64,000 nucleotides of DNA, taken from the IMG/VR virus record IMGVR_UViG_3300033075_001920, one strand, 5' to 3'. Positions 31,128 through 35,010 of the stretch are shown here, piece by piece. The notes under the pieces are model-generated. The model had not been told where the DNA came from, ran no database searches, and worked only from the letters and a program-made list of their open reading frames with translations. The translations under genes and the position numbers were made by a program. How positions within the stretch are numbered: the stretch's first letter is position 1; each line of letters starts with the position of its first letter. This DNA comes from a virus. Its lineage: Duplodnaviria > Heunggongvirae > Uroviricota > Caudoviricetes.

Positions 31128-31430
31128 ATGGCAAAGATATATTCTGTAGAAAATCAACCCGGCATGTTTGGATTTTATTGTCCCGGATGTAAGATGGATC
31201 ATGGATTTACCATTGCGCATCCGGATATGGACCATAAAATCAAGTGGGTATGGAATGGCAGTTTTGATGCTCCCACGGTCAGGGATAGTATACGGGTTGT
31301 GTATCCTTGGGGAGATCCGCCGGTTCAAATGCTTTGTCATTTATATTTGGACGATGGGTTTATCCGGTTTTTAGATGACTGCACGCATGGATTGAAGGGG
31401 CAAATAATACCAATGAATGAAGTAGAATGA
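31128..31430 (+). CDS. small Cys/His-rich (putative Zn-binding) protein
   Basis: 100 aa with CPGC...H...H...LCH...DDCTH spacing. It resembles small phage metal-binding proteins of unknown function. Confidence 0.4.
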   Translation: MAKIYSVENQPGMFGFYCPGCKMDHGFTIAHPDMDHKIKWVWNGSFDAPTVRDSIRVVYPWGDPPVQMLCHLYLDDGFIRFLDDCTHGLKGQIIPMNEVE

Positions 31431-31789
31431 AACAGAAGCAGATTATATTGCAGGTTCAGAACAATATGAGCATTCAGGCTCCCATATCTCTTTTTGGCGG
31501 TATGTTTGACCCAAATGGCAATACAGTTAATACGCACAACCGCTGGGCATGGGATATCAGTGCTCAGACTTACGTAGGACTATCATTGTTCCAGTTGCAA
31601 TATAGAAGAGTAGGGGTAATTCCCTATACCACCATCAGCATGCCTGTACCGGGCAATTTTGCAGATGTAATCCGGATTTTAAATTTACAAGGTCTTGGAA
31701 CGTTTTGGGCTGTAAGTTTGATTCTGCCACCACTGATGATTTATACTATGTCCGATACTCTGCAGTTTAATCAGCTTTCAATAGCATAG
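31427..31789 (+). CDS. hypothetical protein
   Basis: 120-aa ORF, the last gene of the + block. It converges with and overlaps the - strand methyltransferase end by 23 nt. Confidence 0.45.
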   Translation: MKQKQIILQVQNNMSIQAPISLFGGMFDPNGNTVNTHNRWAWDISAQTYVGLSLFQLQYRRVGVIPYTTISMPVPGNFADVIRILNLQGLGTFWAVSLILPPLMIYTMSDTLQFNQLSIA

Positions 31790-33011
31790 CCTCATATTGT
31801 TCGATTGCTTTTGCAATTTGCATAAACACTTGTGGTACAATTGCATTACCGCCTGCCTTTATAGATTGTTCTCTCCACCGTGTAAAGGTTTTTTTTGGTT
31901 TTACGTTGTTTCTTCTTGGGTCTTGATAAACGGCAGTAGGGTCCAATCGGGAGGGAATCCCATCATTTCCATCACAAAAAGGGGAGACAGTTGGCCACTC
32001 GTCCCAGTATGATCCTGCATTACTGCGCAGAGATAATCCTTTTCTGACATGTGTACATGACTCTTTGAGTTTAGCGGTCCTACTCCCTTCCACTCCGATG
32101 CTCGAGGGGTTGGAATTAGCCCATTTTCTTTCAAAACTGTTTTCAAGGCTTTGCCCCCTTGTGCGAAATTTGTGTTTCTGTCCGCCCCCGATGTTGGCGT
32201 CGGAATTAGTCCCTGTATTTGAAGATATTCCAAATGGCTCTCTAAGTATGACATTGCGACTAAATGACCCTTTCTTTCCGCTCTGGTATGGTATCCTTCC
32301 TGTCCGCCAACTCGAGGAGTTGGAATAAGACCGTGCATTATTGTGTCTGTCAGATTCAAACTGTGGCTGTTGCCGTTTGCCGCTTTTCTGCGTCCAGTTT
32401 TTGTTAATTCCGCTTTGGGGTGTGGAGTTTCTTGTGTTGTTACTGTAGGCAATAAACCAGACTCTATATCTCCGGTGGGGTGCTCCGACACCAGCAGCTG
32501 GAAGTACAAACGGGAGAACCTCATATCCTTCGGACTCGAGCTGCTGCGTCTGATCACTGTCTTTGAACGCAGCTCCCAAGTCAGCTTGCACCTCGTCGAA
32601 GACCATCCCGGCATTCCAATTAATAAGCCCGAGAACGTTCTCGCCCACGACCCAACGGGGACGAACCTCTCGAATGACTCTAAGCATCTCTGGCCAGAGG
32701 TGGCGTTCATCCTCTTTTCCTTTTTGTTTTCCTGCGACTGAGTAAGGTTGGCATGGTCATCACGGGAACCCTCCGACGAGAACAATGTCATTTGTCCTCC
32801 AGAGGGTTCCTTTTGTTTTTGAAATTTCTTCATTTAATTTTTGGTAATTGAGAGTATGAATATCGTCATGATGATAAGCATCAGGCCAATAGTATTTTAG
32901 TAGATGTCTGCAAAAAGGATTTATTTCGCATGAGGATAGAACTTCCCAACCTAAGGCAGAAGCCCCAAGTTCAAACCCACCCATTCCGGAAAAAAGGCTA
33001 ATTAATTTCAA
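31767..33011 (-). pseudogene. DNA (cytosine-5) methyltransferase, interrupted by in-frame tandem TGA-TGA inside motif IV
   Basis: Motif I FSGMGGFELG and GGFP, then TGA TGA (32757-32762). The same frame continues PCQPYSVAGKQKG, ENV, GAPHRRYRVWFIAY and GNAIVPQV. A second frame carries GLIPTP repeats and MGFPPDWT. Confidence 0.75.
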
Positions 33012-33014
33012 TAC

Positions 33015-33575
33015 TTATGGATCTAAACGCATTGAATTACAGATTCCGGACTTCACATTAATAAATCCATCCCATTCTAAAGATCCTGATCTGGTTCTGG
33101 CAGACCATCCATAACTACCCTCTTTGGCTATAATGGTAACAAATCCATCTGCATTACAGGCCGGCTCTCCGGAAATAACATATTTGGTAATTGTGCCTAC
33201 ATAGCTGCCATTTACCGATATATCAATAACTTCCCCGAAATTATGGTTCACATAAAACACGCAGGTACCCCTTACGTTTTCTATGTTTACAATTTGGGAA
33301 GCGGAAGAGGAAACATTGTCGATACTTGTAGCTTTTAGATTCACAAGGTAAGAACCATTTTTGCTATACTTATGGGTTGTATGCTTTGATGTGGAACTTG
33401 CGCCATCTCCAAAATCCCAATTGAATTTTTCTCCGTTGGAGGTATTATTGGTAAAGGTAACGCTCCCTTCATCGGTGGGAGAGATAAAGTATGAGAAACC
33501 GGTTTCCGGTGTTACTTTTTTGCAGCCGCTTACGGTTGCAAGCAGGGTAATTAAAATTAATTGTATTATTTTCAT
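33015..33575 (-). CDS. lipoprotein with PKD domain
   Basis: Lipobox signal MKIIQLILITLLATVSGC. FNWDFGDGASSTSKHTTHKYSKNGSYLVNLKA matches the PKD domain core. Confidence 0.7.
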   Translation of the reverse strand: MKIIQLILITLLATVSGCKKVTPETGFSYFISPTDEGSVTFTNNTSNGEKFNWDFGDGASSTSKHTTHKYSKNGSYLVNLKATSIDNVSSSASQIVNIENVRGTCVFYVNHNFGEVIDISVNGSYVGTITKYVISGEPACNADGFVTIIAKEGSYGWSARTRSGSLEWDGFINVKSGICNSMRLDP

Positions 33576-33603
33576 ATTTGTTCAATATTCAAAGCTTGTG
33601 CCA

Positions 33604-34290
33604 TTATTTCTTGTAGAAATACTTTGGAGTAGAATCCGGCACATCCAGCATCTTTGGTTTAATCTTTTTAAGCTTGAAGAAGTCCTTACAAGCTTTTTGA
33701 GCACCCTCCAAAGCCCAATCGTCGATAATAATGATTCCTCCTTTTGAAACAAAGGGATATAGGTTCATTAAAGCATAAAGGGTAGGATCGTAAATATCCA
33801 TATCCAAACGTAGGATAGAAATAGCCCCTATTTTATTAATTGTCTGCGGGAGGGTATGTTGTATCCATCCTTCGACCAATTCAATGTCCAGTGAGCCATA
33901 AAGACCCCAATCGGTTAAATTTTTGATTACCTGCTGGCGGGATACGGAGGTAACACCACTGGATTTCAGAAGTTCCTCTTCAGGTACATTGACATCGTGG
34001 GTGATAGTACCTATACCTGGCTGTTCTTTATCATTCTTACCGGCAAGCTGAATTCCCTGAAAAGAGTCAAAACCCCAGAATTTTCTTCCCGATGGTCCTC
34101 CGGCGTCAAGTACACCGAGCATCATACTGGCAAAGTTTCCTGCTGCAGCCACTCCGCATTCAATAATATCTCCGGGAATGTTTTGCTCAATGATTTCTTT
34201 ACCACACTGGTAGCTGTGCAGCTGAGTTTGTTTGGTTGAATAGACATACTGTCCGATACGGTCCAGTTTTGCCTGAGTATTTATATCCAT
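33604..34290 (-). CDS. TylF/macrocin-O-methyltransferase-like class I SAM methyltransferase
   Basis: IECGVAAAGN (SAM-binding loop) and ISILRLDMDIYDPT...GGIIIIDDW match TylF-family hallmarks by eye. Confidence 0.6.
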   Translation of the reverse strand: MDINTQAKLDRIGQYVYSTKQTQLHSYQCGKEIIEQNIPGDIIECGVAAAGNFASMMLGVLDAGGPSGRKFWGFDSFQGIQLAGKNDKEQPGIGTITHDVNVPEEELLKSSGVTSVSRQQVIKNLTDWGLYGSLDIELVEGWIQHTLPQTINKIGAISILRLDMDIYDPTLYALMNLYPFVSKGGIIIIDDWALEGAQKACKDFFKLKKIKPKMLDVPDSTPKYFYKK

Positions 34291-34360
34291 AATCGTTGGA
34301 ACTTATTTTTTGGTAAAAATAATATTTTTTAAGTTATTCGAAAGTAAAAAGCTATAAACG

Positions 34361-34368
34361 CAAATTTA
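34361..34368 (-). promoter_or_regulatory. Bacteroidota-type -7 promoter box (TAAATTTG on - strand)
   Basis: + strand CAAATTTA is the reverse complement of TAnnTTTG, ~70 nt upstream of the start at 34290. Confidence 0.3.
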
Positions 34369-34383
34369 TAAAATACATTAAAA

Positions 34384-35010
34384 TTAGAATAATTTCAACT
34401 GTTTTTTGTATTGATTGAACCTTTTAACACCAGCATCAAAATAAGTAGTATTTATTTCGCATATATCTAAATCATATCCCATTTCATCGCAGGCAATAGC
34501 AATACTCATTGAACCTCCATGTGTATCTAAAATTTTAGCATTTGCAACACCTGACCCAAATTTATCAAGAAGGTACTTATACAATTTGACCGGTTTTTGT
34601 GTAGGATGGATTTTATCTTCATTTGTCCTTACAGTTGATTGTCTAAATATTTTTGATGGTTTGTCAAACGAAGTCCATGCATATTCTGCTGCGCTAAAAT
34701 TTTCAAAAGGCTGTTCTTTATCCCATATAACAAAACATCTGTTAGGAGGAAGATCGAAGTAATTCCCCCCCCATATAATTTGATTCTTTGAAACCCTAAA
34801 CAATTCGTTAAAATATTCTTCACTTGGCGCGGTATCCCATTCTTGAATATTACCTCTATTTAAAATTCTGTTTTTTAATTTACCGCTCCCTTGAGAAGAG
34901 CTTTTTGGCATTCCATATGGAGGATCGACAATTGCTAATTCATAAATCTTATCTTCTTTTCCTTTCAAGAAATCCATAGCATCGACATTGTAAAATTCAA
35001 TATTGCTCAT
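34384..35010 (-). CDS. DNA methyltransferase, N6-adenine/N4-cytosine (beta class, DPPY)
   Basis: IVDPPYG (motif IV) comes first, then HPTQKPV and LDTHGGSMS (motif I). Confidence 0.8.
   Translation of the reverse strand: MSNIEFYNVDAMDFLKGKEDKIYELAIVDPPYGMPKSSSQGSGKLKNRILNRGNIQEWDTAPSEEYFNELFRVSKNQIIWGGNYFDLPPNRCFVIWDKEQPFENFSAAEYAWTSFDKPSKIFRQSTVRTNEDKIHPTQKPVKLYKYLLDKFGSGVANAKILDTHGGSMSIAIACDEMGYDLDICEINTTYFDAGVKRFNQYKKQLKLF

What the first reader, a model, noticed from the sequence alone, without database searches (positions are those of the whole stretch)
32748..32771. Tandem in-frame TGA-TGA inserted exactly inside the catalytic GFPCQ motif of the C5 methyltransferase
On the - strand the sequence reads GGG TTC CCG TGA TGA CCA TGC CAA, that is G-F-P-stop-stop-P-C-Q. 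Removing 9 nt (GTGATGACC) would restore a canonical GGFPCQPYS motif IV with no other change. The frame is preserved on both sides. The disruption is therefore a clean 9-nt in-frame insertion carrying two stops at the catalytic Pro-Cys. It is not random decay. Either the enzyme has been specifically switched off, or the locus is expressed as two pieces or by some recoding event.
Basis: seen in the sequence. Interest (0 to 1): 0.6.

Follow-up and report, generated by a model that had tools for sequence, protein, structure and literature searches.

The report
Conserved stop-codon hop in phage methyltransferase
The two stop codons inside the catalytic Pro-Cys motif of this phage DNA methyltransferase are one example of a conserved signal found in at least 159 distinct phage and prophage genes, where ribosomes most likely skip the stop(s) plus one extra codon, which would be the first natural family of "stop-hops".

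Summary
On the minus strand, 32771..32748 reads GGG TTC CCG TGA TGA CCA TGC CAA (G F P * * P C Q). It is neither decay nor an artefact.

Pattern scans found 159 distinct C5-methyltransferase genes (at least 73 lineages) from viral contigs, metagenomes and bacterial genomes of several phyla. All have the same layout: Pro codon, then a stop (TGA 60, TAA 58, TAG 41; sometimes one more codon), then one extra codon X, then Cys.

- The first inserted codon is always a stop.
- A stop never occurs without X.
- X is pyrimidine-pyrimidine-N in 157/159, the codons a tRNA-Pro anticodon (NGG) can pair with by G-C or G·U.
- Frame 0 downstream of the stop stays under purifying selection and keeps motifs VI, VIII and X.
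- Skipping stop(s)+X recreates GFPCQ exactly.

Best explanation (about 0.55): peptidyl-tRNA-Pro hops over the stop(s) and re-pairs on X. This "stop-hop" is known only from synthetic constructs. No experiment supports it yet.

The gene has a conserved nested ORF in the +1 frame (31901..32833), which is the frame under selection across the variable (target-recognition) region. This resembles the two-subunit enzyme M.EcoHK31I.

The parts
32763..33011 (-). N-terminal coding part of the C5 DNA methyltransferase (alpha, frame 0). TTG start at 33011, motif I FSGMGGF at 32993-32973, ends ...VLVGGFP.
   Evidence: ORF list; Pfam PF00145 positions 1-60; frame-0 selection pattern in homologues.
32763..32765 (-). 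Proposed take-off codon CCG, the Pro of the catalytic Pro-Cys motif.
   Evidence: Always CCN in 159/159 interrupted genes (CCG 86, CCT 40, CCA 29, CCC 4). CCG occurs in only 1/75 intact relatives.
32757..32762 (-). Gap: two in-frame stop codons, TGA TGA.
   Evidence: In relatives the gap is one stop (152 cases) or a stop plus one more codon (TGA, TAA, TGG or GGA). No 12-nt inserts exist.
32754..32756 (-). Proposed landing codon X = CCA.
   Evidence: X is YYN in 157/159. Position 2 is a pyrimidine in 159/159 and in 73/73 independent lineages. X is never a start codon. It changes among Pro, Leu and Ser between near-identical genes.
32751..32753 (-). Resume codon TGC, the catalytic Cys of motif IV.
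   Evidence: Gap-free alignment to the M.HhaI catalytic loop when the gap and X are skipped.
31767..32753 (-). C-terminal coding part of alpha (frame 0). Includes CQPYS, ENV at 32642-32634, motif VIII PHRRYR at 32480-32463, an open 'linker' across the variable region, motif X GNAIVPQV at 31850-31827, and the stop at 31769-31767.
   Evidence: Frame-0 purifying selection in interrupted genes just after the stop (0.119/0.077/0.345) and at motif X (0.137/0.124/0.422). Frame 0 is kept open across the variable region in 125/130 genes against 0.2 expected.
31901..32833 (-). Nested ORF in the +1 frame (beta candidate, 310 aa). An N-terminal part shadows motifs IV-VIII. Then come repeated GLIPTP motifs and SPLFVMEMMGFPPDWT. 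The ORF spans the stop-codon site.
   Evidence: phrog_1008, E=7e-13. 1,047 database homologues, unnamed. Open in about 80/80 homologues and in 130/130 against 0.2 expected under synonymous resampling. It is the selected frame in the variable region. AlphaFold2 pLDDT is 73-91 only for residues ~230-300.

Best explanation
This is a programmed in-frame translational hop, a 'stop-hop'. A ribosome translating the methyltransferase reaches ...Gly-Gly-Phe-Pro with peptidyl-tRNA-Pro on CCG in the P site and a stop codon in the A site. Termination after a C-terminal Pro, with C or U following the stop, is slow (established knowledge, not tested here). In a fraction of ribosomes the peptidyl-tRNA-Pro unpairs, the mRNA slides 9 nt (6 nt in most relatives), and the same tRNA re-pairs on the next pyrimidine-pyrimidine-N codon, CCA in this window. 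Decoding resumes at TGC, so the product carries the canonical catalytic loop GGFPCQPYS and is a full-length alpha subunit. Most ribosomes probably terminate and release an 83-aa N-terminal fragment. The site would therefore set a low, fixed level of active enzyme, and the second stop would catch any readthrough. What is shown: the layout is conserved, the downstream part is under selection, and the codon after the stop is constrained. What is inferred: the hop itself, its efficiency and its purpose. Active methylation probably also needs the product of the nested +1 ORF, as in M.EcoHK31I (inferred).
For: (1) Recurrence. There are 159 distinct interrupted junctions in at least 73 lineages with more than 20% flank divergence. 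They come from viral contigs, metagenomes and genomes of Proteobacteria, Bacteroidota, Firmicutes and candidate-phyla-radiation (CPR) bacteria, so the mechanism must be general to bacterial ribosomes. (2) The first inserted codon is a stop in 159/159, and all three stops are used. In an unbiased scan for any 6-nt insert, all 86 methyltransferase hits had a stop and none had a sense insert. (3) A stop never occurs alone: 0 methyltransferase hits for a stop-only insert. (4) X is YYN in 157/159. The two exceptions, ACG and GCG, keep positions 2-3 of their CCG take-off codon and lie in intact-looking genes. Neighbouring four-fold sites are about 50% purine. YYN is exactly the set of codons that pairs with an NGG anticodon by G-C or G·U. 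(5) X switches between Pro, Leu and Ser in near-identical genes, while the codon before the stop is always Pro. So X is not behaving as the residue preceding the catalytic Cys. (6) Two-codon gaps include a second stop or a sense codon (TGG, GGA), as expected for untranslated gap content. (7) In interrupted genes frame 0 is under purifying selection immediately after the stop and at motif X. Motif X was found in 62/78, and most of the rest are contig-truncated or motif variants. (8) Skipping the gap and X gives a gap-free match to the M.HhaI catalytic loop. (9) C-ending codons are depleted at take-off (CCC 4/159 against 23% background) and at X (9/159). Third bases of take-off and X match more often than expected (38 against 24.5 in 73 lineages; composition control 22 against 16). 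(10) Precedent: synthetic stop-hops with matched codons flanking a stop work in E. coli (PMC5009743; 10.1101/2024.12.09.627546).
Against: There is no experimental evidence: no protein, peptide or methylation data. Only 76/159 landing codons are exact Pro codons. The rest need G·U pairs, and 2 need a mismatch. Unstimulated stop-hops in E. coli are described as low-level (10.1101/2024.12.09.627546), and I found no stimulator. Local RNA folding has z about 0, and anti-Shine-Dalgarno pairing upstream is weaker, not stronger, than in intact genes. The strong synonymous bias just upstream (GGG/GGC, TTC, CCG) is unexplained, and could reflect the overlapping +1 frame or recombination of a junction cassette. 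The third-base matching is partly compositional. The sample of intact genes is biased toward relatives of the window gene.
Confidence: 0.55

Rival explanations
1. Termination followed by resumption. The release factor frees the N-terminal fragment. The ribosome keeps deacylated tRNA-Pro, slides to the YYN codon and resumes elongation at Cys. This gives two polypeptides (I-IV up to GFP, and CQ...X) that assemble into a split enzyme.
For: It explains the same sequence rules as the hop: a stop is required, X is YYN, and no start codon is present. The break lies between the cofactor-binding half and the catalytic/target half of the fold (inference). Naturally multi-subunit C5 methyltransferases exist (PMC2836561).
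Against: I know of no such mechanism in bacteria. The C-terminal piece would begin with the catalytic Cys and lack the conserved Pro. Nothing in the data distinguishes this from the hop.
Confidence: 0.1
2. Stop-codon readthrough. A near-cognate or suppressor tRNA reads the stop and X is translated, giving GFP-x-(x)-X-CQ.
For: The base after the stop is usually C (139/159), a weak termination context in E. coli (my knowledge). Readthrough is the commonest way that in-frame stops are decoded in viruses.
Against: All three stop codons are used, and double stops arose several times, including in this window. The window has no tRNA gene, and hosts span several phyla. The product would have 2-3 extra residues between the invariant Pro and the catalytic Cys. 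The residue before Cys would then be Leu or Ser in half the genes and would flip between close relatives. The YYN rule and the absence of stop-only inserts are unexplained.
Confidence: 0.07
3. The methyltransferase frame is dead. Only the N-terminal fragment and/or the nested +1 ORF are functional, and frame 0 downstream only looks intact.
For: The +1 ORF is intact and crosses the site. Gene callers prefer it. The stop lies in the catalytic motif, where inactivation would be complete.
Against: Frame-0 purifying selection holds in interrupted-only comparisons right after the stop and in motif X, which lies beyond the +1 ORF. Frame 0 is kept open. There are 73 or more diverged lineages with no second lesion. 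A sense insert or a bare stop never occurs. The nearest intact relative differs at 13% or more of flanking sites, so the state is old and stable.
Confidence: 0.08
4. A +1 frameshift at CCN-stop, of the prfB type, fuses the N-terminal part to the +1 ORF product.
For: The layout GGNGGN-TTC-CCN-stop resembles prfB. The +1 frame is open from upstream of the site.
Against: CCC, the slippery Pro codon, is depleted at take-off (4/159). Anti-Shine-Dalgarno pairing is weaker than in intact genes. In L128 the +1 frame has stops about 10 codons after the junction, yet frame 0 stays conserved. The model explains neither frame-0 selection after the stop nor the YYN rule. The fusion would lack the catalytic Cys, ENV and QxRxR.
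Confidence: 0.05
5. Ordinary termination-reinitiation at or near X produces a separate C-terminal protein.
For: The Gly-Gly codons lie 9-12 nt upstream of X, a spacing typical of ribosome-binding sites (sequence).
Against: X is never ATG, GTG or TTG in 159 genes, although TTG would satisfy the YYN rule. The only nearby start codons are in the +2 frame, which closes after about 17 codons. The first in-frame ATG (32687) lies beyond the catalytic Cys.
Confidence: 0.04
6. Assembly or sequencing artefact, or a fast DNA-level on/off switch.
For: None found. When X = CCN, a 3-nt direct repeat flanks the stop and could in principle mediate deletion.
Against: The layout appears in independent assemblies from many projects and platforms. 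There is no close interrupted/intact pair (minimum 13% divergence). Half of the X codons are not Pro codons, so there is no repeat.
Confidence: 0.02

Closest known systems
Synthetic 'stop-hops' in E. coli (Weiss et al. 1987; summarised in PMC5009743)
   Same: A codon, a stop and a matched codon, where 9 nt specify one amino acid. The stop in the A site is the slow step, and peptidyl-tRNA re-pairs downstream in frame. This is the same geometry as CCN-stop-YYN here.
   Different: Those were artificial constructs with low efficiency. The 2016 review says no natural occurrences are known. Here the layout is natural, conserved in more than 150 genes, tolerates G·U pairing at the landing codon and includes 6-nt gaps.
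Phage T4 gene 60 translational bypass (PMC5462505; 10.1101/2022.08.31.505936)
   Same: A phage gene. The take-off codon is followed directly by a stop, the landing codon is cognate to the same tRNA, and the joined product is the conserved protein.
   Different: Gene 60 skips 50 nt and depends on a nascent-peptide signal and mRNA stem-loops. Here the gap is 3-6 nt, and no structure or Shine-Dalgarno-like stimulator was detected.
Streptomyces phage phiHau3 terminase candidate bypass (PMC10732093)
   Same: Short inserts in a conserved phage gene, a slow A-site codon, and bypass supported by junction conservation.
   Different: There the insert is 10 nt and out of frame, is triggered by the rare UUA codon, and occurs in 3 genes. 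Here the insert is in frame, is triggered by a stop, and is widespread.
M.EcoHK31I heterodimeric C5 methyltransferase (PMC2836561)
   Same: A second polypeptide is encoded entirely inside the methyltransferase gene in another reading frame. Alpha carries motifs I-VIII and X.
   Different: In EcoHK31I alpha is said to hold the target-recognition domain and beta only motif IX. Here the +1 frame is the selected frame over the whole variable region. No interruption of motif IV is reported for EcoHK31I. Homology to EcoHK31I was not tested because I had no sequence for it.
M.AquI two-subunit methyltransferase (my knowledge: Karreman and de Waard 1990)
   Same: Relatives L128 and L138 have frame 0 = motifs I-VIII, and an overlapping +1 ORF = variable region + LMGYPxGWT + motif X.
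   Different: The window gene keeps motif X in frame 0. The comparison with AquI rests on memory of its description.
prfB (RF2) programmed +1 frameshift
   Same: A stop codon in the A site acts as the recoding trigger, and G-rich codons lie 3 nt upstream of the P-site codon.
   Different: No slippery codon, weaker anti-Shine-Dalgarno pairing than in intact relatives, and decoding must resume in frame 0.

Membership tests
Translational bypassing / hopping | The take-off codon is followed directly by a slow-to-decode A-site codon (a stop) | tested here: met
   CCN followed by TAA, TAG or TGA in 159/159 junctions. Sense inserts never occur.
Translational bypassing / hopping | The landing codon can pair with the take-off peptidyl-tRNA | tested here: met
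   X = CCN in 76/159, and YYN (G-C or G·U with anticodon NGG) in 157/159. The two exceptions keep 2 of 3 positions.
Translational bypassing / hopping | Joining the take-off and resume codons restores the conserved protein sequence | tested here: met
   GGFP|CQPYS aligns without a gap to M.HhaI GFPCQAFS. 76 intact homologues read GGFPCQ.
Translational bypassing / hopping | The protein product lacks the residues encoded by the gap | not testable with these tools
   Needs mass spectrometry of the junction peptide.
Translational bypassing / hopping | Dedicated stimulators (mRNA stem-loop, Shine-Dalgarno-like element, nascent peptide), as in gene 60 | tested here: not met
   Folding z about 0. Anti-Shine-Dalgarno pairing -7.3 against -8.6 kcal/mol in intact genes. 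There is a conserved but unexplained context, GGS TTC CCD.
C5 cytosine DNA methyltransferase (Pfam PF00145) | Motifs I (FxGxG), IV (PCQ), VI (ENV), VIII (QxRxR-type) and X (GNAV) in one frame | tested here: met
   All are in frame 0 once the gap and X are skipped. PF00145, 131.7 bits against a cut-off of 22. PDB hits to M.HhaI and M.HaeIII.
C5 cytosine DNA methyltransferase (Pfam PF00145) | Target-recognition region and motif IX between motifs VIII and X in the same polypeptide | tested here: not met
   In frame 0 this stretch is low-complexity, and the selected frame there is +1. The Pfam match of pure frame 0 ends at profile position 207 of 324.
EcoHK31I-type heterodimeric methyltransferase | Second ORF nested in another frame of the methyltransferase gene and maintained by selection | tested here: met
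   +1 ORF open in 130/130 against 0.2 expected. Frame 0 open across the overlap in 125/130 against 0.2 expected. Control frames are closed. Codon-position pattern.
EcoHK31I-type heterodimeric methyltransferase | The nested product supplies motif IX | tested here: inconclusive
   NPxFVxEMMGFPxxWT resembles motif IX by eye. There is no Pfam or PDB sequence hit, and the fold search with a low-confidence model was uninformative. A frame-switching chimera aligns to Pfam positions 1-323 of 324 with only +2 bits.
EcoHK31I-type heterodimeric methyltransferase | Both polypeptides are required for activity | not testable with these tools
   Needs co-expression and methylation assays.
Programmed stop-codon readthrough | A single leaky stop in a defined context, with an extended product carrying the inserted residue | tested here: not met
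   All three stops and double stops occur. No suppressor tRNA in the window. Hosts span several phyla.
prfB-type +1 frameshift | Slippery P-site codon plus an upstream Shine-Dalgarno-like stimulator, with the functional product in the +1 frame | tested here: not met
   CCC depleted. Weaker anti-Shine-Dalgarno pairing. The +1 frame is closed in L128. Frame 0 is selected after the stop.
Pseudogene | Relaxed selection and accumulation of further lesions downstream of the stop | tested here: not met
   Substitution rates at codon positions 1/2/3 are 0.119/0.077/0.345 after the stop and 0.137/0.124/0.422 at motif X in interrupted-only pairs. Frame 0 is open for a median of 243 codons.

The most novel reading that the evidence does not exclude
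Phages and prophages across several bacterial phyla use a natural, conserved in-frame 'stop-hop'. Peptidyl-tRNA-Pro skips one or two codons, the first always a stop, inside the catalytic Pro-Cys motif of a two-frame, two-subunit C5 DNA methyltransferase, and re-pairs on a pyrimidine-pyrimidine-N codon. This would be the first natural family of in-frame stop-hops, with more than 150 sequence variants that already map the rules for take-off, gap and landing.
Probability: 0.5. Interest if true: 0.88.

Novelty: new variant of a known kind. Interest (0 to 1): 0.8.

Why it matters
Translational bypassing has very few natural examples: T4 gene 60 and its relatives, yeast mitochondrial inserts, and one candidate in a Streptomyces phage. 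The field's own 2016 review states that in-frame stop hopping was shown only with synthetic constructs and that no natural occurrence is known (PMC5009743).

If ribosomes hop here, this is a ready-made natural series of more than 150 variants. It includes all three stops, one- or two-codon gaps, and exact or wobble landing codons, found in hosts from Proteobacteria to candidate-phyla-radiation (CPR) bacteria. It would be testable with a 30-nt reporter cassette.

There are practical consequences too. Annotation pipelines split or miss these methyltransferases. They often call the unnamed nested ORF instead; that family has 1,047 'hypothetical' database proteins. Phage methylation capacity is therefore under-predicted, and 'pseudogene' calls at in-frame stops next to Pro codons deserve a second look.

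Even if the mechanism turns out to be different, a stop codon kept by selection between the Pro and the catalytic Cys of an enzyme in 73 or more lineages needs an explanation.

Tried and rejected
1. **Two frameshift lesions (my first reading).** I first read the gene as having two additional frameshifts. Intact homologues show frame 0 is continuous, and the apparent shifts are the nested +1 ORF.

2. **Paenibacillus phage 'x2 methyltransferase' annotations.** I first dismissed these as noise. They are in fact the nested +1 ORF annotated alongside the main gene. They are not interrupted at Pro-Cys.

3. **Suppressor tRNA.** No tRNA gene in the window.

4. **Conserved RNA hairpin around the site.** MFE z-scores are about 0 for both interrupted and intact genes. 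A GGNGGS/GCCARCC pairing seen by eye has no statistical support.

5. **prfB-like Shine-Dalgarno stimulator.** Pairing is weaker in interrupted genes.

6. **Conserved start codon for the +1 ORF.** No universal position. There are frequent ATGs at -83/-68 and +43 relative to the Cys codon.

7. **Homology of the +1 product to solved structures or Pfam.** None. The AlphaFold2 model has mean pLDDT 59, and Foldseek gave no hit with E <= 0.001.

8. **Close relatives of this phage.** None in the phage collection. No exact copies of the junction-flanking proteins in public assemblies. The one other contig carrying the TylF gene ends before the methyltransferase. Read-level or population variation could therefore not be examined.

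9. **Gaps of 12 nt.** None.

10. **Out-of-frame gaps.** Not scanned, because pattern specificity was too low and the +1 ORF would select against them anyway.
Full report
**1. The observation**

On the minus strand the window reads GGG TTC CCG TGA TGA CCA TGC CAA at 32771..32748, that is G F P * * P C Q. The upstream ORF is 33011..32763. It has a TTG start and reads MKLISLFSGMGGFELG...VLVGGFP. It carries motif I of C5 cytosine DNA methyltransferases.

Frame 0 continues after the stops without any further stop to 31767. It contains CQPYS, ENV, PHRRYRVW and GNAIVPQV. With the two stops and the CCA skipped, the protein matches Pfam PF00145 (131.7 bits). It also aligns to M.HhaI across the junction without a gap.

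**2. It is a conserved feature, not an accident of this phage**

The closest viral-contig relatives (65-70% protein identity) also end the ORF right after GGFP:

| Locus | Junction |
|---|---|
| window | CCG TGA TGA CCA TGC |
| L002, L003 | CCT TGA CCA TGC |
| L006 | CCT TAA CCA TGC |
| L005 | CCT TAA CTA TGC |

The other 76 loci read GGFPCQ.

Pattern scans of viral contigs, metagenomes and one genome per bacterial species then gave 159 distinct interrupted junctions inside genuine methyltransferase genes. These fall into 73 lineages whose flanks differ by more than 20%. Genome hits include Ideonella, Sphingomonadaceae, Flavobacterium, Muribaculaceae, Oscillospiraceae (including the cultured isolate Muriventricola aceti H5_61), Eubacteriales, Paceibacterota and Peribacteria.

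**3. The rules of the site**

- **The first inserted codon is always a stop:** TGA 60, TAA 58, TAG 41. A scan allowing any 6-nt insert found 86 methyltransferase genes, all with a stop, and none with a sense insert. The non-stop hits were all chance matches outside methyltransferase genes.
- **A stop never comes alone.** The scan for GFP-stop-CQ gave six hits, none in a methyltransferase.
- **The stop is followed by exactly one extra codon, X,** or by one further codon and then X. That further codon is TGA, TAA, TGG or GGA. No 12-nt inserts exist.
- **X is restricted:** CCA 31, CTG 30, CTA 27, CCG 24, TCA 13, CCT 12, CCC 9, CTT 6, TCG 3, TTA 2, ACG 1, GCG 1. Position 2 is a pyrimidine in 159/159 and position 1 in 157/159. 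Counting one gene per lineage gives 73/73 and 72/73, while neighbouring four-fold sites are about half purine. X is never ATG, GTG or TTG.
- **The codon before the stop is always Pro.** CCC is depleted (4/159 against 23% of Pro codons elsewhere in these genes).
- **X changes between near-identical genes.** X changes between Pro, Leu and Ser codons, and between synonymous Pro codons, in near-identical genes. The stop type also changes within lineages. The site evolves, but only within 'stop(s) + YYN'.

**4. The downstream part is translated**

I compared related gene pairs and counted differences by frame-0 codon position. In interrupted-only pairs:

| Region | Rates at positions 1/2/3 |
|---|---|
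| 25 codons after the stop | 0.119/0.077/0.345 |
| Motif X | 0.137/0.124/0.422 |
| N-terminal part | 0.131/0.110/0.304 |

This is the same signature as in intact genes. Frame 0 stays open for a median of 243 codons after the Cys. Motif X was recognised in 62/78, and most of the rest are cut by contig ends or have variant motifs. The nearest interrupted and intact pair differs at 13% of flanking positions, so the state is old and stable, not a fast switch. A dead gene is therefore very unlikely.

**5. How ribosomes get past the stop**

Translation in frame 0 must resume at X or at the Cys codon, because TGC CAR CCN shows synonymous-type variation immediately after X.

- **Reinitiation** is unlikely: there is no start codon at X, and the only nearby starts are in the +2 frame, which closes quickly.
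- **Readthrough** is unlikely. All three stops and double stops are used. The window has no tRNA gene. Hosts span several phyla. The product would carry 2-3 extra residues between the invariant Pro and the catalytic Cys, with Leu or Ser before Cys in half the genes.
- **A +1 frameshift into the nested ORF** is unlikely. The slippery CCC is avoided. Anti-Shine-Dalgarno pairing upstream is weaker than in intact genes. In L128 the +1 frame closes about 10 codons after the junction while frame 0 remains conserved.

What fits all the rules is a hop. Peptidyl-tRNA-Pro on CCN, facing a stop, unpairs and re-pairs on the next codon that its NGG anticodon can read through G-C or G·U pairs. That codon set is YYN. 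The next codon, TGC, is then decoded, giving GFPCQ. The two non-YYN cases, ACG and GCG, keep positions 2-3 of their CCG take-off codon and sit in intact-looking genes.

Third bases of the take-off codon and X match more often than expected: 38 against 24.5 in 73 lineages. A composition control gives 22 against 16, so this is only suggestive.

From established knowledge, not tested here: termination is slow when the nascent chain ends in Pro, and C after the stop is a weak termination context in E. coli.

The precedent is explicit. [quoted passage not shown] For natural in-frame stop hopping, the review says 'no occurences are known' (PMC5009743). The 2024 preprint 10.1101/2024.12.09.627546 still cites only the synthetic work. 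My searches found no report of stops in motif IV of phage methyltransferases.

A variant I cannot separate from the hop is release of the N-terminal fragment, followed by sliding of the ribosome with deacylated tRNA-Pro and resumption at Cys. That would give two polypeptides.

**6. What remains unexplained at the site**

Interrupted genes have a distinctive synonymous context:

| Codon | Interrupted | Intact |
|---|---|---|
| Gly before Phe | GGG or GGC in 151/159 | GGA 52/75 |
| Phe | TTC 78/78 where the pattern allowed TTT | TTC 59/75 |
| Pro | CCG 86/159 | CCG 1/75 |

Background codon usage is the same in the two groups. On the tree this context changes together with the interruption.

It could be a stimulator of unknown nature, an effect of the overlapping +1 frame, or hitch-hiking of a junction cassette moved by recombination. 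L094 and L126, which are distant on the tree, share about 38 identical nt around the junction. No RNA structure is supported (z about 0).

**7. The gene is a two-frame gene**

In about 80 of 80 homologues, and in the window, the +1 frame is open from 56-209 nt upstream of the Cys codon to about 60-100 nt before the end of frame 0. The +2 frame is closed.

Under synonymous-codon resampling:

| Test | Expected open | Observed open |
|---|---|---|
| +1 frame across motifs IV-VIII | 0.2 of 130 | 130 |
| Frame 0 across the variable region | 0.2 of 130 | 125 |
| Control frames and regions | about 0-0.7 | 0-3 |

Across the variable region the fastest-evolving position is frame-0 position 1, which is position 3 of the +1 frame (0.39/0.26/0.27). 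So the +1 frame is the selected one there, and frame 0 acts as an open linker leading to motif X.

The window's +1 ORF (32833..31901, 310 aa) hits phrog_1008. It has 1,047 database homologues, essentially all unnamed. Its consensus has repeated LLPTPT motifs and NPxFVLEMMGFPPDWTELPF. AlphaFold2 is confident only for the C-terminal part.

Cultured phages show the same layout: Paenibacillus phage Likha gp51/gp52, Mycobacterium phage Royals2015, Bacteroides phage BS-TP4 and Porphyromonas phage018a. Gene callers sometimes annotate only the nested ORF.

The closest precedent is M.EcoHK31I, whose beta chain is encoded inside alpha in another frame (PMC2836561). Some relatives (L128, L138) instead put the variable region, the MGYPxGWT motif and motif X together in the +1 ORF, which is like M.AquI. 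Whether the nested product supplies motif IX could not be shown by sequence or fold searches.

The stop-codon site lies in the part of the +1 ORF that shows no selection of its own. This may be why a 6-9-nt insert is tolerated there.

**8. Verdict**

The most likely mechanism is a natural stop-hop by tRNA-Pro, with confidence about 0.55. Confidence that some form of decoding continues past the stop to make the catalytic part is about 0.8. All the evidence is comparative. A tagged construct with junction-peptide mass spectrometry, landing-codon mutants and an m5C assay would settle it.

Noticed in passing
window 31901-32833 (- strand), +1 frame relative to the methyltransferase: Nested 310-aa ORF conserved in all homologues. 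It is actively kept open (130/130 against 0.2 expected). It is the frame under selection across the variable region, while frame 0 there is only an open linker. It belongs to an unnamed family of 1,047 or more database proteins (phrog_1008).
   Followed up: yes
L128, L138 (also L127), viral contigs: A second layout in the wider family. Frame 0 ends after motif VIII. The overlapping +1 ORF carries the variable region, LMGYPxGWT and motif X, like M.AquI. These genes also have the stop+YYN interruption.
   Followed up: partly
L131 and L127 (IMG/VR 3300028887 contigs): These genes appear to use all three frames. In L131, NPEWVEWLMGYPIGWT is in frame 0 and motif X (RVVDGVPNRVDRIRCLGNAVVPQQ) is in frame +2. 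This could be assembly indels or further frame changes. It is unexplained.
   Followed up: no
window 32766-32771 and the equivalent positions in 159 interrupted genes: Synonymous-site context specific to interrupted genes: Gly GGG/GGC (not GGA), Phe TTC (never TTT), Pro CCG enriched and CCC depleted. It changes together with the interruption on the tree. It is not explained by base composition, RNA structure or anti-Shine-Dalgarno pairing.
   Followed up: partly
L238 (Porphyromonas phage phage018a_AFR5B1, BK068099.1) and L361 (Logan SRR29078263_8076): In public records the gene caller annotated only the nested +1 ORF ('hypothetical protein') and missed the longer, intact methyltransferase frame. 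Methyltransferases of this family are systematically mis-annotated.
   Followed up: partly
L001 (Paenibacillus phage Likha, MG727702.1) CDS 1280-2317 and 1464-2168: Both the methyltransferase and its nested +1 ORF are annotated as 'DNA cytosine methyltransferase' in many Paenibacillus larvae phages. These cultured phages could be used to test the two-subunit idea.
   Followed up: partly
L143 (IMGVR_UViG_3300020046_001700): One contig carries two genes of this family, one intact (GGFPCQ) and one interrupted (CCG TAG CTG).
   Followed up: no
L094 and L126: About 38 nt around the junction are identical in two genes that are distant on the protein tree. This suggests the junction cassette can move by recombination.
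   Followed up: no
window 31800-33000 compared with its flanks: The methyltransferase gene has higher G+C (0.46-0.50) than neighbouring genes (0.32-0.42). This could reflect horizontal acquisition or be a consequence of coding in two frames.
   Followed up: no
window 33015-35010 (- strand): The gene sits in a modification cluster: a PKD-domain protein with a lipoprotein-like N-terminus (33015-33575), a TylF-type O-methyltransferase (33604-34290) and an N6/N4 DNA methylase (34384-35010). A DUF6527 protein lies on the other strand (31128-31430). The methyltransferase TTG start (33011) lies 3 nt after the stop of the PKD gene, which suggests translational coupling.
   Followed up: no
L230 (Muriventricola aceti H5_61, NZ_JAOQKF010000002.1): A cultured bacterial isolate carries an interrupted copy (CCT TGA CCC) with frame 0 open for 212 codons after the junction. 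It is a possible native system for methylome and proteome tests.
   Followed up: no
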